From: Nitrospirota bacterium
Lineage (GTDB): Bacteria > Nitrospirota > UBA9217
Reading direction: 5' to 3'
Assembly (NCBI GenBank): GCA_963840455.1
Contig: CAWIYV010000011.1
Coordinates: forward strand, 832,001 to 896,000
DNA length: 64,000 nt
Shown here: piece by piece, positions 576 to 47,640 of the stretch
How positions within the stretch are numbered: the first letter of the stretch is position 1
How the letters are laid out: each line of letters begins with the position of its first letter
Position numbers and translations under genes: made by a program
Notes under the pieces: model-generated
Seen by the model: only the letters and a program-made list of their open reading frames with translations
What the model was told of the DNA's origin: nothing
The model's database searches: none

Positions 576-612
576 CCGCTGGTGAAACGGGCGGGGAATT
601 GTTCATGGCTCA

Positions 613-662
613 TTGAAGCTCCCTGCAGCAAGCTACGGGGAATGAGCTCGCTCCTGGATTCA
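613..662 (+). repeat. Repeat family A (REP/REPIN-like), short copy
   Basis: TTGAAGCTCCCTGCAGCAAGCTACGGGGAAT..CTCGCTCCTGGATTCA; related copies at about 3866, 33033, 39487, 41266 and 46105. Confidence 0.85.
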
Positions 663-903
663 TGAAGTGACCCGATACTGCCTTTACCCCGTACGTGTCC
701 TTTAACAGCTATTTCCTCCTATCCTTCGAGCAATATCTGCTTGCCCCGAACAGCCGCTACAGTCCTCCCTTGCCGATCGAGGATTTCTTCGCGTGCACGC
801 TGAGGAATGAGCAGGGAAAGAACGTGGGGCGTTCTAAAAGACACGGCCCCAAGATGTTTTGGCGACTCGCATTTCATCTTTTCAGGCCTGACCCCGGACT
901 GCA

Positions 904-1818
904 TTAGAGCTCGACGATTCTCGTGCTGATCTCTATCGCCGCCTCGGCGCCCTGGCCTGCGGAGATGATCGCCTGGGAGTGGCCCGTGCGGAGAGCTCCC
1001 AGGACAAAGAGGCCGGGGATGCTCGACTCGCCGTTGCCCTTCGTCATGATCTTGAACCCCTCGGCGTCGCGCTCCAGGTCCAGGCCCTCGAGATACTCGT
1101 CGTTCAGCGAGATCCCGCCCCACCCCAGGATCACCTCGCAGGGGATGACGCTGCCGTCGCTCATCCGCACCCCCTCGAGGGTCGTCTCGCCGAGAAGTTC
1201 CTCCGGCCGGCCCTCGACCAGGCCGATCCCCTCCTCCTCGAGCAGCGCCCGGTACACCGGCGCCAGCGTGAATCCATGGGCGAGAAAGGTCACGTCCTTG
1301 GTGTACATCTGCTTCATGCCGACGCTCAGGCGCACGCCGTTCACCGTGCGGTCGATGACGAGCAGCTTCTTGCCCGTGGTGCGGTAGCCGTCGCAGATCA
1401 TGCAGGTGTAGTAGGAGTGGCCGAAGAAGCGATGGAGGTTCTTAAAGGGCGCGAGGGTCTCCCTGGCCCCGGAGGCGGCGATGACGAAGCGCGAGCGATA
1501 GGTCTTGCCCCCGGCCAGCACCTCGAAGTTGCCGTCCCGTGGCGTGACGCGGTCCACCTTGGCGTTCTCGATGGTGACGCCGAAGCTCTTCACCTGGCTG
1601 AGGCCGGTCTCCAGGAGCTCCGGGCCGGAGACAAGACGAAGGCCGAGGTAGTTCTCGAGGTGCTTCGCGTAGCTTGTCCGCCCGCCAGGGGTGTGGAACA
1701 GCATGACGCGAAAATTGTAGCGGCCCAGGTGGATGCAGGCCTGCAGGCCTCCCGGCCCTGCGCCGATGACGATGCAGTCGAGAGGTGTTTCCCTGCCTGT
1801 GGTGTCCGCTTGTCCCAT
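904..1818 (-). CDS. Thioredoxin reductase-like NAD(P)/FAD-dependent oxidoreductase
   Basis: GAGPGG FAD motif, CMICDG redox CxxC and C-terminal GLFVLG. Confidence 0.85.
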   Translation of the reverse strand: MGQADTTGRETPLDCIVIGAGPGGLQACIHLGRYNFRVMLFHTPGGRTSYAKHLENYLGLRLVSGPELLETGLSQVKSFGVTIENAKVDRVTPRDGNFEVLAGGKTYRSRFVIAASGARETLAPFKNLHRFFGHSYYTCMICDGYRTTGKKLLVIDRTVNGVRLSVGMKQMYTKDVTFLAHGFTLAPVYRALLEEEGIGLVEGRPEELLGETTLEGVRMSDGSVIPCEVILGWGGISLNDEYLEGLDLERDAEGFKIMTKGNGESSIPGLFVLGALRTGHSQAIISAGQGAEAAIEISTRIVEL

Positions 1819-1920
1819 CGCCGCTCCCCCTGCACCCCGGGGAACAGCACCCGGGGCGTTCGATTAAAATGTTCTCATCGTCCGATTCCGCCCGGCCCTG
1901 TCAAGCCGCACGAACTGACC

Positions 1921-2943
1921 CTATGGGTTTGCCTTCTCCATCCTATCGGAGTACCTGCCGTACCGCGCGGCACCGTTGCACTTCGCCCGGTGATGGAACA
2001 GCATCTGTGCCGGGACGACATTTATTGGCGATCCTTTCCAGGCCTTGAGGCTGGGTTCCTGCAGCGCCCGCCCATAGGAGAAGCTGATCTCCCAGGGCTG
2101 CGCGCCGAGTGCGTTCATTGCATTGAGATGTTCCGTGGCCAGCTCGGGGCTCTGACCGCCGGAAAGGAAGACCATGCCCGGAACAGCTGCGGGCACCGCG
2201 CGCCGGAGCGTCCTGAGGGTCGCCTCCGCCACCTGGCCGACGCCGGCCTGCTTCAACGCCTTTTTGCCCGCAAGGACCATGTTGGGCTTCAGCAGCATGC
2301 CTTCGAGGGCCACGTTGTACTCCCGGAGCTCATGAAATACGTTGACGAGCGTCGCCAGCGTCGCTTCTTCACAGCGTTCGATGTCATGGTCGCCGTCCAT
2401 CAATACTTCGGGTTCCACGATAGGGACCAGCGCCGCTTCCTGCGAAAGGGCGGCATAGTGCGCGAGGGCATGGGCGTTGGCATTGATATTGGAACGGCTG
2501 GGCATGCCGGGCCCGATCGTTATGACCGCCCGCCACTTGGCGAACCGGGCCCCCAGGTCGCGGTATTCCTTCAGGCGCTCGCGCAGTCCGTCAAGGCCGG
2601 CGGTGATCTTCTCGTCGGGGAAGCCGGGCATGGCAATGGTCCCCTTGTCCACCTTGATGCCGGGAATGATGCCCCTGCTTTTGAGAACATCCACGAACGA
2701 TCTTCCGTCCGCCGCTTTCTGGCGGATGGTCTCGTCGAACAGGATGACACCGCTGATGAACTCCTCGATGCCCGGCGTGGTGAACAGCGTCTCACGGTAT
2801 GCGCGCCGGTTCTCTTCCGTGGATTCGATGTTCAGCGCGGCAAAACGTTTTTGGATCGTCGGCTGGCTCTCGTCGGCCGCCAGGATCCCCTTGCCCTTCG
2901 CTACCAAAGACCGTGCAGTGGTTTCCAGCTCCTTGGATATCAT
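1921..2943 (-). CDS. Fructose-bisphosphate aldolase class I
   Basis: KGILAADES, KWRAV, IVEPEV, LLKPNMV, FLSGGQ and FSYGRALQ motifs; ATG at 2943 after a GGAGG RBS. Confidence 0.95.
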   Translation of the reverse strand: MISKELETTARSLVAKGKGILAADESQPTIQKRFAALNIESTEENRRAYRETLFTTPGIEEFISGVILFDETIRQKAADGRSFVDVLKSRGIIPGIKVDKGTIAMPGFPDEKITAGLDGLRERLKEYRDLGARFAKWRAVITIGPGMPSRSNINANAHALAHYAALSQEAALVPIVEPEVLMDGDHDIERCEEATLATLVNVFHELREYNVALEGMLLKPNMVLAGKKALKQAGVGQVAEATLRTLRRAVPAAVPGMVFLSGGQSPELATEHLNAMNALGAQPWEISFSYGRALQEPSLKAWKGSPINVVPAQMLFHHRAKCNGAARYGRYSDRMEKANP

Positions 2944-3169
2944 CGTACACACCTCCCGCCAGGATATTGAGACTTTTATTTTTTGGATACTTCCGTATTG
3001 AGTGGACGAAATGACAGCTCTTGTCAGGGAGAACAAGCAGTATGCACAAAAGGCTCATTTATCTCAATCTTTAAGTCTGACCCCAGTTGTCCTCCTTTCT
3101 TCGGGCAAGCAAGAAAGCTGCAGATTGAGACGTATCTGGATCTCTTTTTCTGCACATCCGCTTCGCGTC

Positions 3170-3975
3170 CTTGAATTAAGATACTTGACCCGTCTACGGC
3201 CACGTCCGCTCGCCCGCGCAAATTCTCGGCTCTCCGGCCTCAGACATGCGCGGCGCCCCTTCGGGACGCTTGCCTTTGGCCAAGACGTGGCCCTAAAGTC
3301 TTTACTAGGGCCGCTCCGTGGACGTGCGGTGATTTGGGGTAGGGCAAGGACTTGAGAAGTCCCCATGCGAACATTCCCGGCAGGCGACCGAGTCCGAGGG
3401 TTAAACAATTTAGACTGTCTGAGCCGCAGACGAGTTTCTAAAATGTACTGAGGACGACCGAGCATGCTGCGAGATCAGAAGGTTCGCCAGATGCCTCTGC
3501 TTTTTGTTACCTTTCTTCGGGCACGCAAGAAAGTGACCCAAAGAAGGGCACCCGACGAAAATTCTTCACGGCACGCTCGGTGTCCTCAGTACATTTCGGA
3601 AACTCGCCCTGCGGGCTCAGACATCCGAAATGCTTCACCCTCGGACTTGGTCGCCTGCCTGGAATTTTCGAATGGGAATGCCTCAGCGGCAACGGCCACT
3701 GTCGCTGCTTCTGCCTTACCCAAGCGCCGGGTAGCCCGGCTGCGAAGTCTGTGCGTATGCATGGGCAGACATCCTCAACCCACTTGCAACGGGGGAAGCC
3801 TTTTATTTTTTAGTGTAGCACAACACCGGCTTCATGCCGGGCATGCACCGCGCGGTTTCTGTTGTCGCTCCCTGCAGCATGCTGGAGGGAGGCTCCGAGT
3901 CCTCAAGGAAGATATTGTTCTAATCGCTCGCTGACCCCGCCAAAAGGCTGCGGGTGGCATTCGCTCCTGGATTCA
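3170..3975. repeat. Intergenic mosaic of REP/MITE-like repeat families (D 3170-3345, B 3360-3765, A 3866-3975)
   Basis: The same blocks recur at 36635-38015 and 50060-50655, in both orientations. Confidence 0.8.
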
Positions 3976-4042
3976 CCGGGATGCAGGCGCTTTTTGGAAA
4001 GGCAAAGCAACAGAGCAGTCTCATTCGGTTCCTGAGAGCGTG

Positions 4043-4432
4043 TTACCTCTTCCCCGGCGTGGAATGTCTTCGGAACCATGCGGCCGCATCCTGAACATCC
4101 CTCTTCTTGAGGGCCATATCCAGGGTAAAGGTCTCAAGTTCCTTCTGCGACGCATTAAGCTCATATCCGTTCAGCATCAGAAAGAGCCCTGCAGCGGAGA
4201 TAGCGGTACGCTTGTTCCCGTCGAGGAAAGGATGGTTGCCGATGAGCGACCCCAGGAGCGCCGCCGCCTTGTGGAACAGATCGCGATACAGGTCCTTTCC
4301 TTCAAAGGTTGCCCGCGGCCGCTCAACGGCCGATCTCAGCAGCCCGACGTCTCGTACGCCGTGCATGCCCCCGGTCTCGGTGACGAGCCGCGCATGGATA
4401 AAGAGCACCTGTTCCGCCGTCAGGTACCTCAC
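4043..4432 (-). CDS. doc: Doc/Fic family toxin
   Basis: Fic motif HPFLDGNKRTA, 129 aa, overlaps the upstream antitoxin. Confidence 0.92.
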   Translation of the reverse strand: MRYLTAEQVLFIHARLVTETGGMHGVRDVGLLRSAVERPRATFEGKDLYRDLFHKAAALLGSLIGNHPFLDGNKRTAISAAGLFLMLNGYELNASQKELETFTLDMALKKRDVQDAAAWFRRHSTPGKR

Positions 4433-4677
4433 TTCTTCGCGAGCTCCTTCAGCGCGGGGCGGTACTTCTCAATGAACTCGTTCACTTGACCGGCGAACGC
4501 CTTGTCGATCCCCGGCACCTTCCGCTTCTTTCTGACCGGAGCGATCACGATCCTTTCCTGTTCTTCATCCAGCTCGACATTCACGTCCGAGCCGGCGGTA
4601 AGATCGAGCTTGTTCAGGATCTCGACCGGGATCGACACACCTTTGCTGTTCCCTATGGCAACGACCTTTCTGTGCAT
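4429..4677 (-). CDS. AbrB/MazE-family antitoxin
   Basis: RKVVAIGNSKGVSIP AbrB signature; ATG at 4677 after a GGAGG RBS. Confidence 0.88.
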   Translation of the reverse strand: MHRKVVAIGNSKGVSIPVEILNKLDLTAGSDVNVELDEEQERIVIAPVRKKRKVPGIDKAFAGQVNEFIEKYRPALKELAKK

Positions 4678-4919
4678 TGTCGCCTCCTTCAGTGTTATAA
4701 CGACATTATAACATTGCCCGGAGCGGTGTAAAGGGGATATTGCGTGCTGGAGATCAGGACCTTGATCAGCGGTGATCATCAACAACTACGGAATCTGGCC
4801 TGACCCGAAGATGTTAGTACAACGTCCCCTACGGTTCTTTCCCCTCCTTTTCGGTGCCTTACGGGACCTCCGTCCCCGCTTGCAGGCTGGCCGGCTCGCA
4901 GGCTGATATGCTTGTTGCA

Positions 4920-4947
4920 TTGACAGGCCCTGAAAACAGGTTATAAT
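4920..4947 (+). promoter_or_regulatory. Sigma70-type promoter
   Basis: TTGACA-N16-TATAAT with both hexamers at perfect consensus. Confidence 0.75.
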
Positions 4948-5050
4948 TAGGATAGAAGCTATCCTGAATATTCCCGGAAGGTTGGCGTACCGCGCAGGTT
5001 GCTGCCGCGCTCCGGCGTCAGGAATGGTTCAGGAAAACGGAGGAATGACT

Positions 5051-5215
5051 ATGGCTACCACAGTGAAAAAGGCCCGCCCGGCCGATAAGGGCAGGAAAAA
5101 GGCAGTCGCTCCGGCAAAAGACCGGATCAAACCAAAGATCAAAGAGGAAGTGTGCTACAGCACTGACACGGCATACGCCGAGAGACAGTGCTGTTGCGAG
5201 GATCTCTGCTGCTGA
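5051..5215 (+). CDS. Small protein (54 aa), Lys-rich N-terminus and Cys-rich C-terminus
   Basis: GGAGGA RBS, upstream promoter and downstream terminator; ends CYSTDTAYAERQCCCEDLCC. Confidence 0.7.
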   Translation: MATTVKKARPADKGRKKAVAPAKDRIKPKIKEEVCYSTDTAYAERQCCCEDLCC

Positions 5216-5238
5216 CCAACGCACAAAAGGCAGATCGC

Positions 5239-5295
5239 ATCCCCCTTCTGTTTCTGCTGTTTTGTTTCTAGAGCAGGAACAGAAGGGGGATTTTT
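5239..5295 (+). terminator. Rho-independent terminator
   Basis: ATCCCCCTTCTGTTTCTGCT / AGCAGGAACAGAAGGGGGAT stem followed by a T-run. Confidence 0.8.
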
Positions 5296-5720
5296 ATTAT
5301 GGCGAGTATCTCACGATGGTAAATTCCCTGACGATTGCTGCACAGAGCGTAACCTGCCCTTTTCATGTCAAAAAACGGTATTCTCAGGCCTGTGGCTGGG
5401 CGCTTTTTATGATCATACGCTAAGTATTTCATTTAGTTGTCTTGGTCCGACCCTGATATTCGCATCCTAATTTCAAAGTCAGACTCCAGAGGTTCCTGCT
5501 TTTATGGATGGCTTTCGAGCGCCGCAAATGCAGGGTCAAGAGTGAAGTCGGGAGAGCCGCAATCTCACATGACAACCTTATTCTTAGGTGACCAGTATAT
5601 GACCCTGCAACAAAAGAGACCTGTATAACCATATAAAGGGCACCTCCAGAGCATACCAGAACGTTTAAGCTCTGATATGCTCTTGGGAGAAGAGACCAAT
5701 CTCATCCCAGGAGGTGCTGT

Positions 5721-6278
5721 ATGCGATTGTACACAGGAATTGATCTGCATTCAAGCAACAGTTATCTGGCGATCATCGATGAAACTGGTAAACGGGTGTT
5801 CAAGAGGAAGCTCCCCAATGATTCGGAACAAATTCTTTCCGCCCTCGCACCCTACATTGATGCAATTACCGGCATCGTCATCGAGTCCACGTACAACTGG
5901 TACTGGTTGGTGGATGCACTCATGGCGGAAGGATACAAGGTTCATCTCGCCAACCCTACGGAGATTAAACAATATAAGGGACTCAAGTATTCAGACGATC
6001 AGCATGATGCCTTCTGGCTGGCCGAGATGCTGCGGCTCGGAATCCTGCCCGAAGGCTACATTTACCCGAAAGAAGATAGACCGATCCGCGACTTGTTACG
6101 CAAACAAGAAGAGCGGCAACAAGTACCTGGCGTGGGCCGGGCATTTTACCAGCGAAAGATGCAAAAGACCAACGCAATGATAGCGCATCAAGCCCTGTCA
6201 CACAAACTGGCACGAGCAGCGTATTACATCATGAGAGATGGAGTGTCCTTTATGCCGGAGAAGCTCTTTACGCAATGA
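5721..6278 (+). pseudogene. IS110 transposase with two internal deletions
   Basis: N-terminal GIDLH/IEST DEDD domain intact; 155 aa shorter than 28192-29214. Confidence 0.88.
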
Positions 6279-6660
6279 AAGTTCACAAGCTGGCTGGGAC
6301 GGTGAACCTGCCTTAGGGTTGGTAAAACCACGAGACCTGATTGGTAATCCGTCCCACCCTTTTATAGCGTTATCAGCATCTTTACTGCCCATACCGCGAG
6401 CCATCTTGGGGCTGGTTAACAACCATAAGACTTGTACGAACTCCTGGACACGGCATGGAACCGAAGATTTTCTGGTCCGCCAAAAGGCGGAAAGGGTCAT
6501 GGATAAAAGAGCTCCACCAATGACCTTAATCCCGATGGGTGACTGGTGCAGTGAAGACTGACGCCGAAACCGAATGAAACTGCGGCAATGGTGAAGATGA
6601 AGATAACGACAAGGCTAGGCGAGAAACGTTTCGTTTCTCGCCACAAGATAGCTGTTTTCG
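6279..6660 (+). ncRNA. Candidate bridge/seekRNA in the IS 3' non-coding region
   Basis: Stem GGGACGG/CCGTCCC encloses TAGGGT and GAGACCTG, which match the two halves of the target; ATGGGTG at 6535 matches the IS right end. Boundaries approximate. Confidence 0.6.
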
Positions 6661-6829
6661 CTTGACGGTGCCCTTTAAATGGGTGACCCTAGGAGGTTCC
6701 AGACAGCTATAAGATCGTACCGGAACGGCGCAAAAAAAAAGACCTGCGTGAGCAGATCGTTCAAAGAGTGAAACTATGGCACAGGATGCAGAGAAGAACA
6801 GGATCGGGTCGAACAGCAGAGAGCTGGTC

Positions 6830-7111
6830 CTACAGCGTCGCCGCCTGCTCTAACGCCTCCTTCGTGCTTCTCTTCTTGATCACCGGTTTCTTTATGTTGC
6901 CGGCAATCTCCGTCAAACTTGCAATAGTCGTTTCCCGTTTGGCAACAATGTCAGCCTGATCGGTCGTCGACATCTGCCTCAATTCCTGGATCAGCCCGCG
7001 TGCCTGTTCCAACTGCTCCATGGATTCAGCGATCGACTTATTTTTGATCGACACTTTTGTCCCATCGATCAAAGCATCTATGGCAGCCCTTACCCGTGTG
7101 AATTCCTGCAT
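6830..7111 (-). CDS. Hypothetical helical protein
   Basis: 93-aa ORF with AAGGAG upstream. Confidence 0.55.
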   Translation of the reverse strand: MQEFTRVRAAIDALIDGTKVSIKNKSIAESMEQLEQARGLIQELRQMSTTDQADIVAKRETTIASLTEIAGNIKKPVIKKRSTKEALEQAATL

Positions 7112-7212
7112 AGTGATACCCAGTCTCCTTTGTGAAATGTGATGCGTCATTGTACGTCTTCTTGAGGGCAATAGCTCGTTAAAAGAGCAGGCCGAACGAG
7201 GGAAATCCGAGG

Positions 7213-7340
7213 ATGGTCCCGGGAAACCGGGAAGCAGGCAGCGGGGGAAAATGGAGGAGTAAGCCGTGTCGAGGGCAGCACATTTCGAGAACTGAAGCCT
7301 GGCGCTGGACGGTCATGTCCAACCGTATGGACCTGACCTT
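7213..7340. repeat. Imperfect direct repeat, copy 1 (copy 2 at 8055-8200, partial copy at 9485-9555)
   Basis: CCCGGGAAACC..GGCAGCGGGGGAA..GTGTCGAGGGC..AAGCCTGGCG..TATGGACCTGACC shared between copies. Confidence 0.8.
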
Positions 7341-7483
7341 GCGATGTTCATCAGGAGATGCAAAATCAGAAATAGAGATAGAAACCATCCTTTTTTACTT
7401 GCACCGGGCGGCGAATTTCGCTATACTTGACACAATCAGGACAGCACGAGTCCTCAATAAGCCTGTCCAAGGAGGGATACCGC

Positions 7484-7993: not shown

Positions 7994-8020
7994 TACAGAC
8001 ACGGACCGATGCAAAAAAGC

Positions 8021-8052
8021 AGGCCCGGGACCTTCCCGGGCCTTTGTTGTTT
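8021..8052 (+). terminator. Rho-independent terminator
   Basis: AGGCCCGGGA-CCT-TCCCGGGCCT with a T-rich tail. Confidence 0.75.
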
Positions 8053-8054
8053 CA

Positions 8055-8200: not shown

Positions 8201-8281
8201 CGGGTCTTTCAAGAAAGGTCTTCTTGCGCTTCAGAAGAATTACCTCTACAATAGCCATGCAGATGATTTCGGAGGCTGATC

Positions 8282-39603: not shown

Positions 39604-39621
39604 TGGCATCCGGACCGGGTC

Positions 39622-40443: not shown

Positions 40444-40864
40444 TGGCCGCTCGGGGCGAGACTTGAATATTGAGATCACGCTGCCGGGACGTTGGTTCTC
40501 AGCATGCTTTCCCCGTAACTCCCCCGCGGCCGTTCCTTGCTGTTCCTGTTCCGTCAGCGTCTTCGCCGTTCCTTCTCCTTCTCCGCCTTCCCCGCCCTGA
40601 ACAGCGCCGCACGCTGCTTCAAAGAACCGGCCGTGCGAGCACCGCCGGATCATATCCCAGCGCCGCTGCGCCCTCCCTGCCCGTGGGATAGGAGAACCTC
40701 CCTGCCGCTGAACGGGAGACCTCATCGTACTTGCTCCGGATGGCGCTCCTGATCTACTCCCGGTCCGCGGTCGCTCCGATCGGGAGTCTCTCCGCTTCTT
40801 TTGCGGGATTATGTGAATGAAGAAAGGAGAATTGCCGCAACCTTCATAATTCTTACTTCTTGTT

Positions 40865-41260
40865 TCACGCTCCGGGGAACTTCCTGAACAGCTTCTGTTC
40901 CTCCGTCTGGATCCTGTCCTTCAGCGTCAGATAGAGCAGCTTGATCTCGCCTGCAAACTCCATTTCGTCCCCGCCCCGGTCGTACTTATTGAAGAGCCGC
41001 ATTGCCTTCGCGCTGACAGCCTCCATGTCGGCGATGAAGAACTTCATCAGCACCGCGAGTTCCCGGTCGCTCTCGGCGGCTTTCCGGAGCCTGGGATAAA
41101 AGAGCTCATCCTCTTTCCGCATATGCGCCAGGAGCAGGTCGCGGGCCGACAGCAGCCGTTCCTGTCCGGCCTGCGATGAGATGCCGAGGGCCTTCACCTC
41201 GCCGAGGATCTCGAGGAGCGCGGCATGTTCGTTCTGCAGTTCCTGGATCAGAGCATTCAT
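40865..41260 (-). CDS. Hemerythrin-like domain protein
   Basis: LQNEH, AHMRKEDELFYP and RIQTEE..LF. Confidence 0.8.
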   Translation of the reverse strand: MNALIQELQNEHAALLEILGEVKALGISSQAGQERLLSARDLLLAHMRKEDELFYPRLRKAAESDRELAVLMKFFIADMEAVSAKAMRLFNKYDRGGDEMEFAGEIKLLYLTLKDRIQTEEQKLFRKFPGA

Positions 41261-41563
41261 GGAAGTTGAAGCTCCTTGCAACAAGCTGCAGGGAATCTTC
41301 GGTCCTCAAGGTAATAATAGATCATTCTAATCGCTCGCTAACCCCCTGCACTCGCGGTTCCACTCGTAAACGCTGGGGGCAAGACCCCGCAGCTAGCTAC
41401 GGGGAATGGGCTCGCTCCTGGATTCAAGTAAGAATTAAGAAATTATCTCCAGGTCTTCTCCCTATCAAGCGGGTGATACAAGCTTCGAAGTCGGGCATGT
41501 TTCTGCCACCGGTTCACAGCTCCGTGCAGTCATGCAGGGCTGGTATTTGCGTCACCGTGGGGG

Positions 41564-41851
41564 TCAAATCTTTGCCGTTGACACAGTAGCTGCTTCACCC
41601 CCTACCACGTGCCCTGCCTTTGCTCGCTTCTTCGCCTTCCCCAGCCTCTCCAGCAGCGCCTGCAGCGTCTCCGCCGCATGGTCCTGCGACCGGAAATACT
41701 CGGGACGCAGCAGGAATCCGTACTGGCCGGGATGATCCGGCCGCTCGATCGCACATTCGAGGATCTCCTCGTCCGTCATGTTCCTGATCTCCTCGACGGA
41801 CAGTCCGCTGAGGTACCGGTTGTATTCTTTCAGCGGATCATCGTCTTCCAT
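41564..41851 (-). CDS. Hypothetical protein, paralog of 43758-44039
   Basis: Shared PL.EYN..LS..AIERP.HP..YGFLL..FRS pattern; GGAGG RBS. Confidence 0.65.
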   Translation of the reverse strand: MEDDDPLKEYNRYLSGLSVEEIRNMTDEEILECAIERPDHPGQYGFLLRPEYFRSQDHAAETLQALLERLGKAKKRAKAGHVVGGEAATVSTAKI

Positions 41852-42030
41852 CGTGCCTCCCGGACCTTCGGAGGCACCGCAGAGTGTCAGGTCTTACGAT
41901 TGACAGTGCCGTTTTTTTCATCGTCCCGTAGACACCAGGGCAAGGTCGACGTTTTTGTCATGCTGCAATCTCTCGGTCTTAAGCTGGGCCCTCTGAGGGC
42001 CGGTCCGCGTGACCGCCGTCGCTGCGGGCA

Positions 42031-42726
42031 TCAGGCGCCGTCGTTCTTCAGGCTCTCCATGAATTGCAGGAGAACCTCTACTGCGCTGTCGGTCAGTTCC
42101 GTGAACTCCACGCCGACGGCATAGCCTCCCTGGCTCCGATCCCTCGACGTTCGGCAGGAAACGACCCTTCCCATGAAGCTGACGGGCGCTGCGGCGTTGA
42201 GCGACAGTTCCAGAAGGATCATGCTGTCAATGTCCAGTTGCTGCTCGGTCCGGATGATGACGCCGCTTCTGCTGATGTCCTGTATCGTGAACTGTGCCGG
42301 AAATTCCAGGACCTTCTCGTTGGGAGTCGTGAGGTTGAACTGGACGTCGCGGAAGCGCCAGTTCGCGGTCGCCGGCATTTCCACCTTCTTGCTCTGTTCA
42401 ATGGAATCCAGGAAATCCCTGACCGTGCCTGCTGATTCGTCCTTGAACACGATGCCGACGAGGTAGCAGGTGACCGACTTGTTCAGGGACCGCTCGTCGA
42501 TCCCGCACAGTTCGGACCGGATGACCAGGCCCTTCACGGGATAGTGCGTTCCGCGATATCCGAACAGGATCGAACATTCTCTTCCGATCGCCAGCCTCCC
42601 TTCCGTTCTCAACAAGACCCCGCCCGGGCTTATGTCGACCACGTCCACTTTGCCGACCAGGTTCACTTTGCTCTCAATATTGATCAGGCGGATACTGAAT
42701 CTCTTATGCTTTCTCTGGTTCTGCAC
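42031..42726 (-). CDS. Tandem PilZ domain protein
   Basis: QRKHKR..DISPGG and a second DISRSG..GVEF. Confidence 0.82.
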   Translation of the reverse strand: MQNQRKHKRFSIRLINIESKVNLVGKVDVVDISPGGVLLRTEGRLAIGRECSILFGYRGTHYPVKGLVIRSELCGIDERSLNKSVTCYLVGIVFKDESAGTVRDFLDSIEQSKKVEMPATANWRFRDVQFNLTTPNEKVLEFPAQFTIQDISRSGVIIRTEQQLDIDSMILLELSLNAAAPVSFMGRVVSCRTSRDRSQGGYAVGVEFTELTDSAVEVLLQFMESLKNDGA

Positions 42727-42800
42727 AAGGGCACCTCTTGTCCTGGAGGCCTGGAGAGCCAGGTCTTTTTTTCACAGCTGCCGGTTCCCGGCCGCTCCCG

Positions 42801-43556
42801 TCACACCATGAACATCCCGCCGTTGACCGGAATGTACTGGCCGTTGACATAGTCCGAGAGCCGGGACGCGAGGAAGACCGCCACGCCCGCCACGTCATCC
42901 GGCAGGCCGAGCCGCCGAAGGGGCGTGAAGGACGCGATCTGCTCGTGCATCTCCCTGGGCTGGTGCTTCGTGGCGTCCGTCAGCGTAAGGCCCGGCCCGA
43001 TGACGTTCACCGTGACGCCCTGCGGCCCGAGCTCCGCTGCCATCACTTTGGCCATGCTGTCCATGGCGCCTTTGGCCGCCGCATGGGCCGAGAACCCGAA
43101 ACCCGGCGATCGCGACAGGCTGCTGCTGACGAGGATGAGCTTCCCGGCCTTCTTCGCAAGCATGGACGGCAGCACTGCCTGGGAGCAGTTCACCAGGGCC
43201 TTCATCTCGCCCATGAGCTTGGCCTCGAACTCCTCCCAGCTGAAGTCCGCGAAGGCCTTGACCGGAAAGCTGATGTTCGCGTTGTTCACCAGGATGTCGA
43301 TCCCGCCGAGCTCCTTCGTCACGGACTGCACCATTGCGTTCACGGCCGCGCGGTCCCGCACGTCCGCGCAGGCGAGCATGGCCGTGCCGCCCTGCTGCCT
43401 GACCTCCTTCAGGACGTCGTCAGCCGTTTCCTGGCCGCAGAGATAGTTGATCGCCACCCTGGCGCCATGGGCGGCGAGCGCCTTTGCCGTCGCCGCTCCG
43501 ATGCCCCTGCCCGCTCCGGTCACCAGCGCCACCTTTCCTTTCAGTCCCAGGTCCAT
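42801..43556 (-). CDS. Short-chain dehydrogenase/reductase (FabG-like)
   Basis: TGAGRGIG and DILVNNA; HxxxK in place of the usual YxxxK. Confidence 0.9.
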   Translation of the reverse strand: MDLGLKGKVALVTGAGRGIGAATAKALAAHGARVAINYLCGQETADDVLKEVRQQGGTAMLACADVRDRAAVNAMVQSVTKELGGIDILVNNANISFPVKAFADFSWEEFEAKLMGEMKALVNCSQAVLPSMLAKKAGKLILVSSSLSRSPGFGFSAHAAAKGAMDSMAKVMAAELGPQGVTVNVIGPGLTLTDATKHQPREMHEQIASFTPLRRLGLPDDVAGVAVFLASRLSDYVNGQYIPVNGGMFMV

Positions 43557-43757
43557 AGAAACCTCCGTTCAGGGGGCTGCCTGGGGACGTTGTTGCTCCT
43601 GTTTCTTTCGTCCATGTTCTTGTTCTCTCCGTTCCCCATCATTTCTCCGGTCAGCGCGTGGCTATATAACTGCGAGACCGCTGAGGGCAGACTTGATTTG
43701 CTGACTTAGTCCCATTCCCCGCTTTCGGCGATCGCGACTACCGGCCTGAACGGAAGA

Positions 43758-44039
43758 TCATCCTTTTGCTTTTGCCAGCCGCTCCAGCAGCGCGTTCATC
43801 GTTTCAGCTACATGTGCATCTGACCGGAAAAAGGCCGGGCTAAGCAAAAAGCCGTACTCACGCGGATGACCCGGCCTCTCGATAGCAAGCTCACGGATCT
43901 CTTCGTCTGAAAGGTTCTCGATCTGCTCGCGGGACAGCTTGCTGATGAAAAGATTATATTCCCTTAACGGTTCCTCGCTATCCAATTTTTCTCCGGGAGA
44001 TCGGGTCCCTAAGGGTCGTGTCTTCTTTCTCGTCATCAA
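43758..44039 (-). CDS. Hypothetical protein, paralog of 41564-41851
   Basis: AIERPGHPREYGFLL; overlaps the TfoX stop. Confidence 0.65.
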   Translation of the reverse strand: MMTRKKTRPLGTRSPGEKLDSEEPLREYNLFISKLSREQIENLSDEEIRELAIERPGHPREYGFLLSPAFFRSDAHVAETMNALLERLAKAKG

Positions 44040-44407
44040 GCCCTATACTCCTTCAGCGTCTTTTTCTTCTTCGCCTTCCCCTTTTTCTCCGGCAAGGACA
44101 GCGCGAACTCCTTCCCGATCCCGATCCACTTCGCCAGCCCTACAGCGCTCTTCCACCCCGCTTCCTCCACCATGACCCACCCGGCCATTGGCCTGCCGGT
44201 GATGTCGAAGGGCTTTACGTTCCTGGCCTTGAGGCTCTTCTCTCCCTGTTCCTTGTCCATCCGCACGATCAGGAAATCCTTCAAGATGCCGAAGCACATG
44301 TTGCCCTTGAGCAGGTAGCACACGCCGCCGAACATCTTCTTCTTGTCCACGTCCTTCCAGCGCTTCACCGCGCTGTCAATCGCTGTTTCCAGTTTTTCGT
44401 TATACAT
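44036..44407 (-). CDS. TfoX/Sxy N-terminal domain protein
   Basis: KKMFGG..GNMCFG..GRPMAGWVMV. Confidence 0.85.
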   Translation of the reverse strand: MYNEKLETAIDSAVKRWKDVDKKKMFGGVCYLLKGNMCFGILKDFLIVRMDKEQGEKSLKARNVKPFDITGRPMAGWVMVEEAGWKSAVGLAKWIGIGKEFALSLPEKKGKAKKKKTLKEYRA

Positions 44408-44419
44408 TCGAATCTCTCG

Positions 44420-44554
44420 TTATTTTCCGTCTATCAGCCGCTCCAGCACGAACCACGCTGCCACCAGCGCCGCGATCAGGAAAATGATCTTCCCGATGTT
44501 CTTCCAGGCACTGACTGTTTCCTGGTCCCCCGGTCCTGTTGGCTCATTACTCAC
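44420..44554 (-). CDS. Small single-pass membrane protein (44 aa)
   Basis: GTG start after AAGGAG; IIFLIAALVAAWFVL. Confidence 0.5.
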   Translation of the reverse strand: MSNEPTGPGDQETVSAWKNIGKIIFLIAALVAAWFVLERLIDGK

Positions 44555-44820
44555 GGTGATCGCTCCTTTCGTCTTTTCAAGCATGACCCCGCAAAGGCCT
44601 CCAAGAACCACTGTCTCTTGAAGGTTCTGATGACCTATGGCATGAACAACCATGCAGCTTTGCATTAAGGACAGCGTACATTCGATTGCCCCCGTTTGGT
44701 CGGGACGTTCAGCTTCTGCGAGCAGCTCTGACAGGTGATTATGGTCGTTGTCGTCAATTCTCCGGTATCAAGCGCCTTTGGGGTCAAAATCTCATTTAAT
44801 GACCCTGTTGATGATATGAT

Positions 44821-45924
44821 CTACCGGGTCTTCTCCGGCGCCTCGCAGGCTGCAGGACCGGCTCCCTTTTCCGACGCCGGCAGGGCCGGCGAAGGGCACA
44901 TCTCGGGCCCGAGCAGTACGGCGATCCATTGCGTGCTTTTATTGTTCTCGCATACAAACTTCAGGGTCATGGTCAGCGGTATGCACAGGACCACGCCGAT
45001 AAGACCGAGCAGGCCGCCCCAGAAGATCAACGAGAGAAAGACGACCAGCGTGGACAGGCCAAGCCTCCGGCCCATCAGCATCGGCTCGACCACGTTGCCA
45101 AGAATGAAATTGACGGACAGATATCCGGAAGCCGCGAGCGCGGCAGGACCTATCCCGAGCTGGATGAGGGCGAGAGAGACCGCGGGTACGGAGGAGATGA
45201 GGGCGCCGATATTGGGCACATAGTGGAGCAGGAATGCCAGGAAACCCCAGAGAATGGGAAAATCCACGCCGAGGATCCAAAGCCATATCCCGATCAGGAC
45301 ACCCGCTGTCATGCTGATCACTGTCTTGATGCCCATGTACCGGTTGATATCATAGACGAACCGCATAAAGGCGTGAAAGTCCCTTTGCGGTTGGCCGAGG
45401 ACCGCGCGGAGCTTGGCGGGAAAGCTCGAGGCTTCCAGGAGGATGAAGGTGACGGTGAGCAGCACCAGGACGACCTCGAACAACGTGGAGCCCAGACCCG
45501 CGAGCAGGCTGGCGGTCAGGCGCCTCACCGTTTCCGGCGTTACCGGGTCGAACTGGATCGAGTCCGCGAACCGGATCCCCTTGGTCGCCAGGAACGTCTG
45601 GAGCGAAGAAACATGCTTCTGCAGGCGCACCTGGTACTCCGGGAGGTCGGCATAAAAACTGTTCAGGGACGTGCCGACCAGCACGCCGATGACCGCGAAA
45701 ACAGCGGCCATGCCCGCCACCACGATCAGCACCGCGGCGGTATAGGGAACGCGTTTCCGCTCGAGCCAGAGGACCGACGGCGCGCCGATGGCGGCCAGGA
45801 AAACAGCGATGAGAATAAATTCCATCACCGATTGCGCCAGATGGATGCTTGCCGTGATGATCGCGAGCGCTGCCACGGCCACGAGAATGCGCGTTCCGCG
45901 ATGAGGATCACTTTGTTCAGTCAT
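44821..45924 (-). CDS. AI-2E family transporter
   Basis: YVPNIG, GNVVEPMLMG and FWGGLLG motifs; multiple TM segments. Confidence 0.9.
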   Translation of the reverse strand: MTEQSDPHRGTRILVAVAALAIITASIHLAQSVMEFILIAVFLAAIGAPSVLWLERKRVPYTAAVLIVVAGMAAVFAVIGVLVGTSLNSFYADLPEYQVRLQKHVSSLQTFLATKGIRFADSIQFDPVTPETVRRLTASLLAGLGSTLFEVVLVLLTVTFILLEASSFPAKLRAVLGQPQRDFHAFMRFVYDINRYMGIKTVISMTAGVLIGIWLWILGVDFPILWGFLAFLLHYVPNIGALISSVPAVSLALIQLGIGPAALAASGYLSVNFILGNVVEPMLMGRRLGLSTLVVFLSLIFWGGLLGLIGVVLCIPLTMTLKFVCENNKSTQWIAVLLGPEMCPSPALPASEKGAGPAACEAPEKTR

Positions 45925-46232
45925 GGACGATCATCCCTTCGATAAAGAGCTGTGTGGTGACTTTGATGCTTTTCCGAATAGCAACGTGCGGCCACTGTTT
46001 CTAACTTAGAACCTGAGGGTCAGGTCGATATCACACATTCATAACTCAAGATTCAAAATTCAATATAAATCAACTAACAAGCTGGCAAGCGCGAGAACAG
46101 CGCATTGAAGCTCCCCGCAGCAAGCTACGGGGAATTCGCTCGCTCCTGGATTCAAAGTTCAATGTTCAAGGTTCACTAAATCTGCTAAAAGGAGACCCCC
46201 TGAGGATCAGGTCTTTCTCTGTGCCTCAGCCA

Positions 46233-46640
46233 TCAAAGGATGTCGATCCCCTCAACCTTCTTATAATGCTTGCTGTCGAACGTGGCGACCCTGGTGTACT
46301 CCTTCGATCTCATATATGCGATGTTATAGGCATCGATGAAATCCATGTTCCCCGCCGTGTAGAGACCGGCCGCATGGGCGATCTTCGCATGATTGGCTAT
46401 CTTGAGGTTCCGTGAAGCAAGGAGGGTGCTCAGCACTTCGACGATCTCTTTCCTTGCAAACCCGTAGAAGGACTCAAGGACCCAGACGATCTCGGCGATG
46501 ACGAGCTCGCTCGTTTCGAGCTTGATCTTTCCGGCTTCGGCCTTTTCGAACAAAGCCCGCGCCTTCTCGTACTGGGCTTCCACGTCCCTCACGAAGAAAC
46601 GCAGGAACACGTTGGTATCGACAAAGACGGGATCATCCAT
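46233..46640 (-). CDS. PIN domain (VapC-like) toxin
   Basis: VDTNVFLRF, EIVWVL, DFIDAY and TFD. Confidence 0.88.
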   Translation of the reverse strand: MDDPVFVDTNVFLRFFVRDVEAQYEKARALFEKAEAGKIKLETSELVIAEIVWVLESFYGFARKEIVEVLSTLLASRNLKIANHAKIAHAAGLYTAGNMDFIDAYNIAYMRSKEYTRVATFDSKHYKKVEGIDIL

Positions 46641-46643
46641 GTG

Positions 46644-46889
46644 CTAGACGCCTTCCCGGGCGATCTTCCGGGCAACCGCCTTTTTGGCGTATTCCCGCTC
46701 GCTCCCGGTCCCCAGCTTCCTTCCCTTTGCGATCCCGCCGAGGTTCAGCAGGGACTTCCGCTCTTTTCGCCTGAGAATGAGCACATTATCCTTCACCTCG
46801 AACTGCAGGCTGTCCCCTTCCTTGATGTGGAACCGGTCACGGACGGGCTTGGGGATCGTGACCTGGCCTTTCTTCGTTACGGTCGACAT
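46644..46889 (-). CDS. AbrB-family antitoxin
   Basis: VTKKGQVTIPKPVR. Confidence 0.88.
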   Translation of the reverse strand: MSTVTKKGQVTIPKPVRDRFHIKEGDSLQFEVKDNVLILRRKERKSLLNLGGIAKGRKLGTGSEREYAKKAVARKIAREGV

Positions 46890-47192
46890 ATTCCTACCTC
46901 CAAATGAGTATTACCTATAGTGTAGGTATTACCGGCGCGAAAGTCAACGCCAAACAGCGGGGACAGGGATCAGGGGAGTATACGTTGGGATCGTTGTTTT
47001 CTGCGTTGAAGTGCCAATACTGCTAAAGAATCCCTGCGAACGGGATCAGCGTTCATCATCAGAACCTGAGGGTCAGGTCGATAGAAACCCGCTCACAGGC
47101 TGGTACGCATACAGGCACACAAGCCAACGGCCCCCCCGGAGTCAGGTCCTTACTGTTAGCATTCCCTTCCATTATTGATTATGTCGAGTGCG

Positions 47193-47537
47193 CTACCGCC
47201 GGAACAATACAATGAACGAAACGCCTAGTGCGATACAGGACACAATGATCGCTCCAATACAAAGCGCAGCTATCCGCCTGAACCTCGATTCAGCGAGTGA
47301 CGCCCCCTGCTCAAGAGCAGCGACGGTCTTTTGCAGCTGCTCGGCCAGCGCTTTGATGTGCACCGCGTTCTGCGAAGCAGCAGACTGAAGCTCGGCGATC
47401 TGTTGCTGCAGGAGTTGTGCTTGCGCTGCAGCAGCCTCATCGCTTTTTCGCGTAGTAAAGACCGGCATCGCCGCTGCAACGATCGTGCTTACGTAAGGCA
47501 AGATCGCTTTTACTGCGGGAACGAACCACGCTGCCAT
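47193..47537 (-). CDS. Hypothetical coiled-coil protein with a C-terminal TM helix
   Basis: GGAGG RBS, Gln-rich heptads and hydrophobic tail. Confidence 0.65.
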   Translation of the reverse strand: MAAWFVPAVKAILPYVSTIVAAAMPVFTTRKSDEAAAAQAQLLQQQIAELQSAASQNAVHIKALAEQLQKTVAALEQGASLAESRFRRIAALCIGAIIVSCIALGVSFIVLFRR

Positions 47538-47640
47538 TGATCCTCCCTAAGAACGTGAGGCGGACACCCTGAGGGGCCCGCTTGGGATCAGGATGAACTA
47601 TTGAGCTCTTCTTCCTGTGTCCCTCGAAGGTTCCGATGAC

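What the first reader, a model, noticed from the sequence alone, without database searches (positions are those of the whole stretch)
600..47600. Oriented site of about 20 bp punctuates a 47-kb cassette-like array and flips polarity around the central island
Seen: a site with core GACCTGACCC, often continuing TnA-GG..GTTC, sits in most intergenic gaps. Left of the island it reads GACCTGACCC on the + strand (885, 1913, 3074, 4797, 5616, 7329, 8181, 9541, 11311, 11341, 14551, 15483, 15521, 15577; exceptions 11997 and 12388). Right of the island it reads GAACC-TnA-GGGTCAGGTC (27719, 27781, 29774, 30863, 31579, 32460, 32923, 39441, 46017, 46204, 47070, 47139). I did not see it between the housekeeping genes after 48 kb. 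Sites abut or overwrite gene ends: the aldolase stop at 1921, the oxidoreductase C-terminus at 9537 and the lipoprotein N-terminus at 32482. They also bound duplicated or truncated fragments. The cargo (TA modules, YciI, small hypotheticals) resembles integron cassette content, but the site is not attC-like. Inference: a gene-capture array built by repeated site-directed or one-ended insertion, growing outward from a centre. The enzyme could be a Y1/HUH transposase acting in trans, since I found no intact candidate here.
Basis: partly seen in the sequence, partly recalled or inferred. Interest (0 to 1): 0.88.

Follow-up and report, generated by a model that had tools for sequence, protein, structure and literature searches.

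The report
Transposase end-repeats punctuating a variable gene island
The repeated site is the end-repeat of a little-studied family of single-strand DNA transposase elements, and here dozens of orphan copies line up in two facing rows that separate accessory genes in a highly variable genome island.

Summary
A site of about 45 bp (aATGTCAA-N4-TAAAGACCTGACCC-TAnnGnTTCC) is clustered and polar. Across the whole island 15 of 18 copies read '+' on the left and 22 of 22 read '-' on the right. It is not attC-like.

In related genomes, whose records are labelled Nitrospiraceae, the same site flanks a 280-290 aa Y1/HUH transposase gene on both sides, inverted, tips outward, in 9 of 12 loci. The protein passes NCBIfam's REP-associated tyrosine transposase model. 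This is the TIRYT/'TIRtron' arrangement of Di Nocera 2013. The window's sites are therefore orphan terminal inverted repeats (TIRs).

This genome keeps only decayed transposase pieces, one of them in the window at 11222-11269.

The sites lie in a 74-kb island. Two same-genus genomes have only 3.8-4.6 kb between the same flanks. Homology between paralogous or related modules often breaks just outside a TIR tip.

An IS110-family element has inserted twice exactly in the tip at a TG core. Both copies have matched half-sites, which rules out an inversion between the IS copies.

Gene capture by the transposase acting in trans is plausible but unproven.

The parts
600..15590 (+). Left arm of the orphan-TIR array as seen in the window. 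It continues left to about C11:809 kb. Tips point right, towards the centre.
   Evidence: Over the whole arm, 15 of 18 sites at 13 bits or more are '+'.
27720..47148 (-). Right arm of the orphan-TIR array. Tips point left, towards the centre. Nearly all genes are on '-'.
   Evidence: 22 of 22 sites are '-'. By hand tally, 15 of 21 inter-gene gaps hold a site.
1912..1921 (+). TIR tip 10-mer (GAACTGACCC) that meets the stop codon of the class-I aldolase ORF 1921-3036(-).
7310..7339 (.). Tail-to-tail TIR dimer: reverse-complement tip, 10 nt, then tip. It looks like a transposase unit with its interior gone. Similar dimers lie at about 8160-8190 and 9517-9551, with a shared left context.
8181..8190 (+). 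TIR tip. Homology with a same-genus genome (G005) starts 7 nt outside it, at 8197.
9542..9551 (+). TIR tip inside the last codons of the FAD-oxidoreductase ORF 9537-11129(-).
11222..11269 (-). Remnant of the Y1 transposase (TIRYT) gene. Its first residues are MARPLRID, against MARPLRIE in intact copies. The ATG lies 41 nt from the TIR tip, against 43 nt in L010.
11311..11320 (+). TIR tip belonging to that remnant; it points away from the remnant. It is followed by a third-subfamily copy at 11341-11350.
11998..12007 (-). One of the two opposite-strand exceptions in the left arm. The other is at 12389-12398.
15483..15531 (+). The last two '+' TIR copies (15483, 15522) before the central island.
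5624..6683 (+). Internally deleted IS110-family copy, inserted in a TIR tip at a TG core. Half-sites: GAGACCTG at 5616-5623 and TGACCC at 6684-6689.
27787..29311 (-). Intact IS110-family element (transposase 28192-29214, 340 aa), inserted in a TIR tip at a TG core. Half-sites: 29312-29319 and 27781-27786.
15614..27674 (-). Central low-G+C island (38-46% against about 58%). It carries DUF429, HNH, NUDIX, radical-SAM-like, MBL-fold and DpdB-like genes and a split SNF2 helicase. Both arms point at it.
29441..29783 (-). YCII module, copy 1, with the TIR tip at 29774-29783 just upstream. Homology with its paralogue and with G003 and G005 starts 10-11 nt outside that tip.
32460..32932 (-). YCII module, copy 2 (94.8% identical to copy 1 over 289 nt), bounded by TIR tips at 32923-32932 and 32460-32469. 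The site at 32460 is the uninterrupted version of the IS target. It also encodes the start and first 11 codons of the lipoprotein-like ORF 31709-32482.
30863..30872 (-). TIR tip upstream of the NTase/HEPN pair. In G003 a different module follows this conserved site.
35540..35549 (-). TIR tip. Metagenome contigs from two runs break 10-12 nt outside it, at 35528-35530.
39441..39450 (-). TIR tip at one end of a 2.5-kb, four-gene stretch (39451-41993) that G003 lacks.
46204..46213 (-). TIR tip 19 nt after the PIN/MazE pair. Homology with G003 ends at 46206, and a contig from run X5 breaks at 46197.
47070..47148 (-). The outermost two TIR copies of the right arm (47070, 47139), next to the core flank.

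Best explanation
**What the site is.** It is the terminal inverted repeat (TIR) of a family of 'TIRtron' elements. Each element is a gene of about 0.95 kb for a RAYT-like Y1/HUH tyrosine transposase (TIRYT), bounded by two copies of the repeat in inverted orientation. The most conserved 10-mer, GACCTGACCC, sits at the outermost tip. The family is common in the relatives searched, whose records are labelled Nitrospiraceae.

**State in this genome.** The transposase genes have decayed. About 70 orphan or dimeric TIR copies remain, concentrated in a few variable regions. The largest is this 74-kb island between conserved flanks. There the orphan TIRs, mostly of the left-end type, form two arms whose tips face a recently acquired low-G+C defence-like island.

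**Shown:**
- the link between the TIR and the transposase gene
- the family-wide spread of both
- the clustering and polarity of the sites
- the variability of the island between genomes
- frequent homology breaks at or just outside TIR tips
- precise targeting of the tip by an IS110-family element

**Inferred.** The Y1 enzyme, supplied in trans or in the past, cuts and rejoins single-stranded DNA at the tip. TIR-ended segments would then be the units that were inserted, lost or swapped, and new DNA would tend to be joined immediately outside an existing tip. That would make co-oriented rows.
For: **TIR and transposase gene**
- An exact 23-mer of the site occurs in 4 other records labelled Nitrospiraceae or Nitrospirota. 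In three of them it lies next to the Y1 gene; in the fourth (L009) the upstream flank resembles the reversed gene start.
- In 12 fetched full-length loci, 9 have the site on both sides, inverted and pointing outward. The other 3 have only the 3' copy, and 2 of those lie at contig edges.
- The protein matches Pfam Y1_Tnp at E 2e-13. It scores 84.8 bits against NCBIfam NF047646, REP-associated tyrosine transposase (cut-off 80).
- It carries NHYH, FQGRY and YVVLNP motifs. These fit the table for subclass 2.1 in Quentin 2018 (passages read).
- Between genomes, homology among these units ends 9-25 nt after the start of the 10-mer. The tip is therefore the end of the element.
- Di Nocera 2013 (passages read) describes this arrangement (TIRYT, TIRtron). 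Its TIRs share GGGGWSAS, and its TIR families occur as single, dimeric or grouped copies.
- Here the reverse complement reads GGGGTCAG where the base after the 10-mer is C, and AGGGTCAG elsewhere.

**Spread in the family**
- The site model finds a match in 58 of 64 family genomes. The protein finds one in 57 of 64.
- The median site count is 10 in the 31 genomes with a close transposase (E 1e-100 or better) and 2 in the other 33. Related genomes are not independent samples.

**This genome**
- Only fragments of the gene remain, each next to sites.

**The island**
- In G001 and G002 the same two flanks lie 4.6 and 3.8 kb apart with no site between them.
- G003 and G004 have TIR-bearing DNA at the same flank.

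**Breaks at tips**
- The YCII paralogues and G003/G005 comparisons break at +10/11. The G005 block breaks at +7 from the tip at 8181. G003 breaks at +17 (42739), +31 (30832) and at the tips at 39441 and 46204.
- Metagenome contigs break 3-12 nt outside tips at 35528/35530, 38540 and 46197.
- By hand tally, 10 of 26 block ends lie within -12 to +31 of a tip.

**Other**
- A second island, in G005, shows the same facing polarity: 9 '>' sites, then mostly '<'.
- Both IS110 insertions lie at the same TG of the tip.
Against: - No intact transposase is present in these 14 contigs. Any activity here must be past, or come from an unassembled or foreign copy.
- No consensus hairpin is predicted for the site. 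The recognition mode known for Y1 enzymes is therefore not evident.
- 16 of 26 block ends are not at a tip. One clear indel end lies about 100 nt from the nearest good site.
- Block ends fall in intergenic DNA anyway, so the enrichment at tips is less striking than it looks.
- Genome-wide, the gap downstream of a site is not significantly shorter than the gap upstream: medians 125 and 171 nt, Wilcoxon p 0.9, using my own crude gene calls.
- Of four stretches sampled from three genomes of other genera, three showed mostly isolated transposase units and no stretch showed a long array. The arrays may be peculiar to this genus.
- Polarity is not explained by replication direction. GC skew stays negative across the contig and across the switch.
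Confidence: 0.72

Rival explanations
1. This is a true gene-cassette system run by the Y1 transposase. Two directly repeated TIRs and the gene between them are excised as a single-stranded circle and re-inserted next to another TIR tip. The arrays would then be built module by module, as in an integron but with HUH chemistry.
For: - Modules of one or two genes are each followed by a TIR.
- The YCII module occurs twice with its downstream TIR but with different upstream junctions.
- G003 has a different module between two conserved TIRs.
- Module order and content differ between genomes that are about 90% identical.
- The rows are co-oriented.
- The cargo is integron-like: toxin-antitoxin pairs, YCII and small unknown genes.
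Against: - No circle, empty site or joint between TIRs was seen. The only joints in laid contigs join copies of an unrelated 118-nt repeat.
- Junction positions relative to the downstream gene vary: 11 nt in this genome and about 35 nt in G003, with no TIR at all in G005.
- Some module ends are not at TIRs.
- In the left arm many genes run against the TIR direction.
- No activity of any TIRYT is reported in the passages I read.
Confidence: 0.17
2. The orphan TIRs are small mobile repeats of their own, like REPs or MITEs. They settled in tolerant intergenic DNA of an island that varies for other reasons. They mark gene boundaries only because that is where insertions survive.
For: - Dimers with nothing between the two tips exist at 7310/7330 and 9517/9542.
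- A TIR is present here but absent in G003 upstream of the same PilZ gene.
- REP-type repeats are known to sit just after coding regions (Di Nocera 2013 abstract).
- Other dispersed repeats crowd the same island.
Against: - Independent insertions should give mixed orientation, not 22 of 22 and 15 of 18.
- Where the TIR differs between genomes, the DNA on its inner side differs too. No clean TIR-sized indel in otherwise conserved DNA was found; the one core-region site examined was present in both genomes.
Confidence: 0.08
3. This is an integron-type array whose sites are unusual attC sites, served by the integron integrase.
For: - The cargo and spacing resemble chromosomal integron arrays.
- A broken integron-integrase-like gene exists at C7:125.1-126.3 kb. 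Its N-terminal half scores 135.6 bits against TIGR02249, and a C-terminal fragment is also present.
Against: - That gene is on another contig, is interrupted, and has no site within about 18 kb.
- Conservation of the site is confined to about 45 nt, with no paired distal half.
- No consensus structure is predicted.
- The site flanks a Y1 gene instead.
- Only two intact tyrosine-recombinase domains are found in the genome, at C1 and C9, both outside the site clusters.
Confidence: 0.01
4. The site is a promoter or regulator-binding site shared by accessory genes. Alternatively, the polarity switch is a single inversion between the two IS110 copies.
For: - In the right arm the site lies 14-38 nt upstream of co-oriented start codons in 9 cases.
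- The reverse strand carries TTGAC(A/T), which sits where a -35 box for the transposase gene would be (by eye).
- The two IS copies are in inverted orientation.
Against: - In the left arm the tip meets the 3' ends of opposite-strand genes.
- The downstream gene is co-oriented in only 39 of 60 sites.
- No conserved second promoter box lies at the right distance.
- Each IS copy lies between the matching left and right halves of one site. An exchange between the copies would have produced mismatched halves.
- '+' sites continue far to the left of the left IS copy.
Confidence: 0.02

Closest known systems
TIRYT / TIRtron (Di Nocera, De Gregorio & Rocco 2013, BMC Genomics 14:522). This is roughly TnpA-Y1 subclass 2.1 of Quentin et al. 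2018 and RAYT group 1 of Bertels et al. 2017, as cited by Quentin.
   Same: - A RAYT-like Y1/HUH gene is flanked by long inverted repeats instead of REP hairpins.
- The TIR carries a GGGGWSAS-like tip.
- The 3' TIR overlaps the end of the gene.
- TIR copies form a moderately abundant repeat family with single, dimeric and grouped copies.
- The protein is longer than classical RAYTs.
   Different: - The family is reported here from genomes labelled Nitrospiraceae. I found no paper that does so.
- The gene is multi-copy in many genomes.
- Orphan TIRs are arranged in long co-oriented rows, in two facing arms, that separate accessory gene modules inside a hypervariable island.
- An IS110-family element is specialised on the tip.
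- None of these points appears in the passages I read. The figures and supplements of both papers were not visible to me.
Classical REP/RAYT systems (REPtrons, REPINs, BIMEs)
   Same: - A Y1 transposase gene is flanked by inverted copies of a short repeat that is also dispersed between genes.
- The repeat often sits right after stop codons.
- IS110-family elements are known to target such repeats (my recollection, not from a call).
   Different: - There is no GT[AG]G head and no predicted hairpin.
- The copy number is tens, not hundreds.
- Copies are clustered in islands rather than spread over the chromosome.
- Rows are co-oriented rather than alternating doublets.
- The transposase is often multi-copy.
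Chromosomal integron cassette arrays (and CALINs)
   Same: - Short modules of one or two genes (toxin-antitoxin pairs, small unknown genes) are each followed by a recombination-type site.
- Orientation is uniform within an arm.
- Content differs strongly between close relatives.
- IS110/IS1111-type elements are known to target attC sites (my recollection).
   Different: - There is no attC structure and no adjacent intI.
- The associated enzyme is an HUH Y1 transposase, not a tyrosine recombinase.
- There are two facing arms.
- Junctions with the next gene are not at a fixed distance.
IS200/IS605 family elements
   Same: The catalytic domain is Y1/HUH. By analogy, single-strand cleavage would occur at the element ends.
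   Different: - The ends are inverted repeats, not subterminal hairpins in direct orientation.
- The protein is about twice as long.
- The NCBIfam IS200 model scores only 16.1 bits against a cut-off of 55.

Membership tests
TIRYT / TIRtron | Encodes a RAYT-like Y1 transposase with an HUH motif and a catalytic tyrosine | tested here: met
   In relatives: Pfam Y1_Tnp at E 2e-13, NCBIfam NF047646 at 84.8 bits against a cut-off of 80, and NHYH, FQGRY and YVVLNP visible. In this genome only fragments remain.
TIRYT / TIRtron | The gene is flanked by terminal inverted repeats | tested here: met
   9 of 12 full-length loci have both copies, inverted with tips outward. The other 3 have only the 3' copy, 2 of them at contig edges. 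Homology between units ends at the tip.
TIRYT / TIRtron | The TIR shares the GGGGWSAS motif | tested here: met
   The reverse complement of the tip reads GGGGTCAG where the next base is C (for example W32460, W8181, W885). In most transposase-flanking copies it reads AGGGTCAG, a 7 of 8 match. The motif itself is taken from passages.
TIRYT / TIRtron | TIR copies form a dispersed repeat family (single, dimer, grouped) | tested here: met
   71 hits at 17 bits or more, against 4-8 in simulated genomes. Dimers lie at 7310/7330 and 9517/9542, and there are groups in six regions.
TnpA-Y1 subclass 2.1 (Quentin 2018) | C-terminal helix-turn-helix / DnaA_C-like extension | tested here: inconclusive
   The protein has about 150 residues beyond the Y1 domain. 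Pfam reports no second domain at E 0.01 or better. No structure was predicted.
Classical REP/RAYT | The repeat is an imperfect palindrome with a GT[AG]G head | tested here: not met
   No consensus pairs were predicted on 38 aligned copies. The consensus has no GT[AG]G.
Classical REP/RAYT | Usually one full-length gene per repeat family per genome | tested here: not met
   Several genomes carry five or more full-length copies without stops, for example G010, G016 and G060.
Integron (attC array) | attC site with paired R''/L'' and L'/R' boxes that folds as a hairpin | tested here: not met
   Conservation is limited to positions -15 to +19. No consensus structure was predicted. No attC covariance model was available to me.
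Integron (attC array) | An integron integrase lies next to the array | tested here: not met
   The best TIGR02249 match is a broken gene on contig C7 (135.6 bits against a cut-off of 265), with no site nearby.
IS110 family (the inserted element, not the site) | DEDD transposase with an IS116/IS110/IS902 C-domain, and insertion at a specific sequence without inverted ends | tested here: met
   Pfam PF01548 and PF02371. NCBIfam NF033542 at 173.7 bits against a cut-off of 140. Two insertions at the same TG of the site.

The most novel reading that the evidence does not exclude
Rows of left-end-type orphan TIRs, together with a TIRYT enzyme, form a second, HUH-based way of capturing and shuffling gene cassettes. 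Single-stranded circles holding one TIR and its gene(s) would be cut out between direct TIRs and joined in just outside another tip. Arrays would then grow tip-first from both edges of an island towards its middle. A guide-RNA IS110 element has specialised on the same tip.
Probability: 0.15. Interest if true: 0.85.

Novelty: new variant of a known kind. Interest (0 to 1): 0.55.

Why it matters
The biological role of TIR-flanked RAYT-like transposases is unknown. The passages I read report only that their TIRs can form repeat families and that no autonomous mobility has been shown.

This locus ties such TIRs to the architecture of a hypervariable island in a lineage related to nitrifying bacteria. 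The rows are polar and face each other. Module boundaries fall at the tip. A second mobile element is aimed at the same tip.

If the enzyme builds these rows, it would be an integron-like gene-shuffling device based on single-strand HUH chemistry. If it does not, the locus remains a clean natural test bed for two questions: what TIRYTs do, and how IS110-type elements choose repeated targets.

Tried and rejected
- **Integron reading.** I searched the genome for integron integrase and for all tyrosine recombinases, and read the broken intI locus. Rejected for the reasons given under the rival explanations.
- **Known RNA or tRNA.** The Rfam gathering scan and ARAGORN found nothing in the window. 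ARAGORN found no tRNA at the island edges.
- **Hairpin.** RNAalifold on 38 copies predicted no pairs. A 4-5 bp stem (ACCC-loop-GGGT) that I saw by eye shifts register between copies, and I did not test it further.
- **Replication-linked orientation.** GC skew shows no switch, and orientation shows no tie to skew sign: 23 '+' and 31 '-' in negative-skew DNA, 5 '+' and 12 '-' in positive-skew DNA.
- **Tight downstream, loose upstream gaps.** Not significant genome-wide.
- **My first relatives pattern** had a wrong gap range and missed this genome's own sites. It still showed the 23-mer in four relatives.
- **Presence/absence of a site in core DNA.** At C11:349690 the site is present in both this genome and G003, so the case is uninformative. 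I fetched the C7:144546 locus but did not analyse it.
- **Left-end versus right-end typing of orphan copies.** The result is only suggestive: 14 left-type, 4 right-type and 9 unclear of 27.
- **Target-site duplication around transposase units.** None was seen in 9 loci.
- **Reads across circular junctions.** Only Logan contigs were on offer, and the best run holds 0.27 of the sampled words. The laid contigs cannot show rare circles. Parts without cover mean nothing.
- **Plasmid search with the transposase.** It found only distant relatives (45% identity or less), annotated 'transposase' or left unannotated. I did not use this.
- **Literature.** Searches for TIRYT, TIRtron, REPtron, RAYT with Nitrospira, and RAYT with gene cassettes found nothing beyond Di Nocera 2013 and Quentin 2018. 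For both papers I read only passages returned by 'find'. Their figures and supplementary files, which list the TIRs and species, were not visible and may already include relatives of this family.

Full report
**1. The observation**

The core GACCTGACCC occurs 9 times in the window against 0.16 expected. It occurs 26 times in the 4.03-Mb, 14-contig genome in which the window is C11:832001-896000. Aligning the sites in one orientation shows a longer consensus. Positions -15 to +19 around the 10-mer are conserved, roughly aATGTCAA-N4-TAAAGACCTGACCC-TAnnGnTTCC, and nothing is conserved further out.

A weight matrix from 32 window sites finds 123 genome hits at 14 bits or more and 71 at 17 bits or more. 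Two simulated genomes give 29-37 and 4-8. The window's own sites match by construction, so the 41 strong hits elsewhere are the independent part. They too are clustered, at C4 106-127 kb, C7 6-26 kb, C9 431-439 kb, C10 121-134 kb, C14 1-18 kb and C11 811-832 kb.

Over the whole island, 15 of 18 sites read '+' in the left arm and 22 of 22 read '-' in the right arm. There is none of 14 bits or more after 47.2 kb. It mixes three repeat subfamilies that share the tip CTGACCC and includes half-sites created by IS insertion.

**2. What lies around the sites**

The genes are accessory. They include Fic/Doc with MazE, PIN with MazE twice, HEPN with a nucleotidyltransferase, and a RelB-like pair. There are two YCII copies, PilZ, hemerythrin, TfoX_N, an SDR and an AI-2E transporter. 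Also present are a class-I aldolase, flavoproteins, an MCRA hydratase and several ORFs without a family.

The centre (15.6-27.7 kb) has 38-46% G+C against about 58%. It carries defence-like genes: DpdB-like, a split SNF2 helicase resembling DpdE/ZorD, and HNH.

**3. An IS110 element shows the site is a recognised target**

The intact element lies at W27787-29311 and has a 340-aa transposase. It scores 173.7 bits against NCBIfam 'IS110 family RNA-guided transposase'. An internally deleted copy lies at W5624-6683. Both sit inside a site.

The uninterrupted site at 32460 reads ...AAAAGAGACC TG ACCCCATAGGG. Both IS copies have ...GAGACCTG on one side and TGACCC... on the other. Each copy therefore keeps the two matching halves of one site. 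A recombination between the inverted copies would have produced mismatched halves. The polarity switch is not such an inversion.

**4. Identity of the site**

An exact 23-mer found in relatives occurs in four public records labelled Nitrospiraceae or Nitrospirota. In most of these records the DNA beside the site is the reversed start of a gene. That gene is a 287-aa protein with Pfam Y1_Tnp that passes NCBIfam's REP-associated tyrosine transposase model.

The gene has the site on both sides, inverted, with tips outward. In 12 further full-length loci from the family, 9 show both copies and 3 show only the 3' one. The 3' copy overlaps the stop codon. The 5' copy lies about 43 nt before the ATG. 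Homology between units from different genomes stops 9-25 nt after the start of the 10-mer, so the 10-mer is the tip of the unit. No target duplication is visible.

This is the arrangement that Di Nocera et al. 2013 named TIRtron, with a TIRYT enzyme. Their TIRs share GGGGWSAS and form repeat families (passages). Quentin et al. 2018 equate it with TnpA-Y1 subclass 2.1 and with RAYT group 1 (passages). The protein's NHYH, FQ and Y..LNP motifs fit their table for that subclass.

**5. Distribution**

The site model matches 58 of 64 family genomes, with 1-45 hits each under strict filters. The protein matches 57 of 64, often in several full-length copies. Genomes with a close copy have a median of 10 sites and the others a median of 2. 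Related genomes are not independent samples.

This genome has only fragments:
- C7:13762-14102, with stops, flanked by sites at 13707(-) and 14164(+)
- C14:8030-8149
- C9:438559-438818
- in the window, MARPLRID... at 11269-11222, 41 nt from the site at 11311

**6. The island**

In G001 and G002, orthologues of C11:800-806.6 kb and of W48.9 kb lie 4.6 and 3.8 kb apart with no site between them. Here they are 74 kb apart. G004 and G003 carry TIR-bearing DNA at the same right flank.

Shared modules are about 90% identical to G003, but their order and neighbours differ:
- G003 lacks the four genes between 39451 and 41993.
- It has 374 nt where this genome has about 2 kb between PilZ and the AI-2E gene.
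- It has another module in place of the NTase/HEPN pair.

**7. Where homology breaks**

The two YCII copies share the gene and the downstream site but differ upstream from 10-11 nt outside the upstream tip. G003 and G005 break at the same place.

Other breaks lie at:
- +7 (8197)
- +17 (42739)
- +31 (30832)
- within or at the tips of 39441, 38544, 44013 and 46204

Among the 32 contig pieces shown of 4796 laid, four break 3-12 nt outside tips.

By hand, 10 of 26 block ends fall within -12 to +31 of a tip. The rest do not, and one indel end lies about 100 nt away. Block ends fall in intergenic DNA in any case, so this is supportive rather than decisive.

**8. Polarity**

The transposase unit has tips pointing outward. 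The island's arms have tips pointing inward, at the low-G+C centre. A second island, in G005, shows the same facing pattern. By eye, so does the C4 cluster of this genome.

Nested insertion of whole units would give the opposite pattern. Replication direction does not explain it. Gene direction does not either, since left-arm genes mostly run against the sites.

The simplest mechanism that yields co-oriented rows is joining of new DNA just outside an existing tip. Each arm would then extend towards the middle. This is inference.

Of four stretches sampled from three genomes of other genera, three showed mostly isolated units, so the rows may be special to this genus.

**9. Verdict**

The site is the orphan end-repeat of a TIRYT family, a known kind of element. 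Here it appears in a newly seen arrangement: polar, facing rows that partition a hypervariable island, with an IS110-family element aimed at the tip.

Gene capture remains a hypothesis. 'Outward growth' and the IS-inversion alternative are not supported.

Noticed in passing
window 27787-28191 (3' non-coding part of the IS110-family element): The roughly 410-nt region after the transposase contains the 9-mer GAGACCTGA, identical to the target across the TG core. It also contains ATGGGTGAC, identical to the junction between the right end and the flank. This is what guide segments of an element-encoded RNA would look like. The Rfam gathering scan found no family here.
   Followed up: partly
window 15614-27674: A low-G+C (38-46%) block with a DpdB-like gene, an SNF2 helicase split into two ORFs (24828-25736 and 25712-26257), HNH, NUDIX, radical-SAM-like and MBL-fold genes and unknown ORFs. 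It looks like a recently acquired defence island. No complete known system was recognised.
   Followed up: partly
window 39486-39603 (similar copies near 41320-41380 and 46115-46135): A repeat of about 118 nt with an internal palindrome is present in dozens of copies, 83-98% identical, in G003, G004 and G005. Its summed depth in four metagenome runs is very high. All joints seen in laid contigs connect copies of this or neighbouring repeats.
   Followed up: partly
window 36670-38020, 50026-50650, 52806-53330: Further dispersed repeat families (units of about 125 and about 190 nt) occur in tens of copies across this genome and its genus, also between housekeeping genes.
   Followed up: no
G000:C7:125148-126316 (L001, L007): A broken integron-integrase-like gene. 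Its N-terminal half and a C-terminal fragment lie in different frames, with a GxxExxY-type small gene between them. No cassette array or TIR site lies beside it.
   Followed up: partly
window 32438-32482: The TIR supplies the ATG and the first 11 codons (MQQKRPDPIGF) of an ORF that continues into a lipoprotein-type signal peptide ending in a ...LSPGC lipobox-like motif. A repeat copy has become the start of a gene.
   Followed up: partly
L020 about 1005-1025, L019 about 300-320, L017 about 1097-1125; L032 about 4510-4575: Immediately outside several TIR tips the flanking 9-16 nt is tandemly duplicated, with the unit starting inside the last bases of the tip. In G005 a 10-nt unit is repeated about six times after a third-subfamily tip. 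This could be a scar of repeated cutting and rejoining.
   Followed up: no
window 873-894 (+) and 27720-27741 (-); also C4:120507, C14:231296, 237166, 243166, 315901: A second repeat subfamily (CATTTCATCTTTTCAGGCCTGACCCC; its 14-nt left part occurs 7 times in the genome) shares only the tip. One copy lies near a different decayed Y1 gene at C14:236722. A third subfamily (CAATCTTTAAGTCTGACCCC, 5 copies) lies at 3067, 11334 and 31579.
   Followed up: partly
L031 (G003:C510) 4598-4774: G003 has a 177-nt insertion exactly between window positions 30932 and 30933, 60 nt upstream of the conserved TIR. Its nature was not examined.
   Followed up: no
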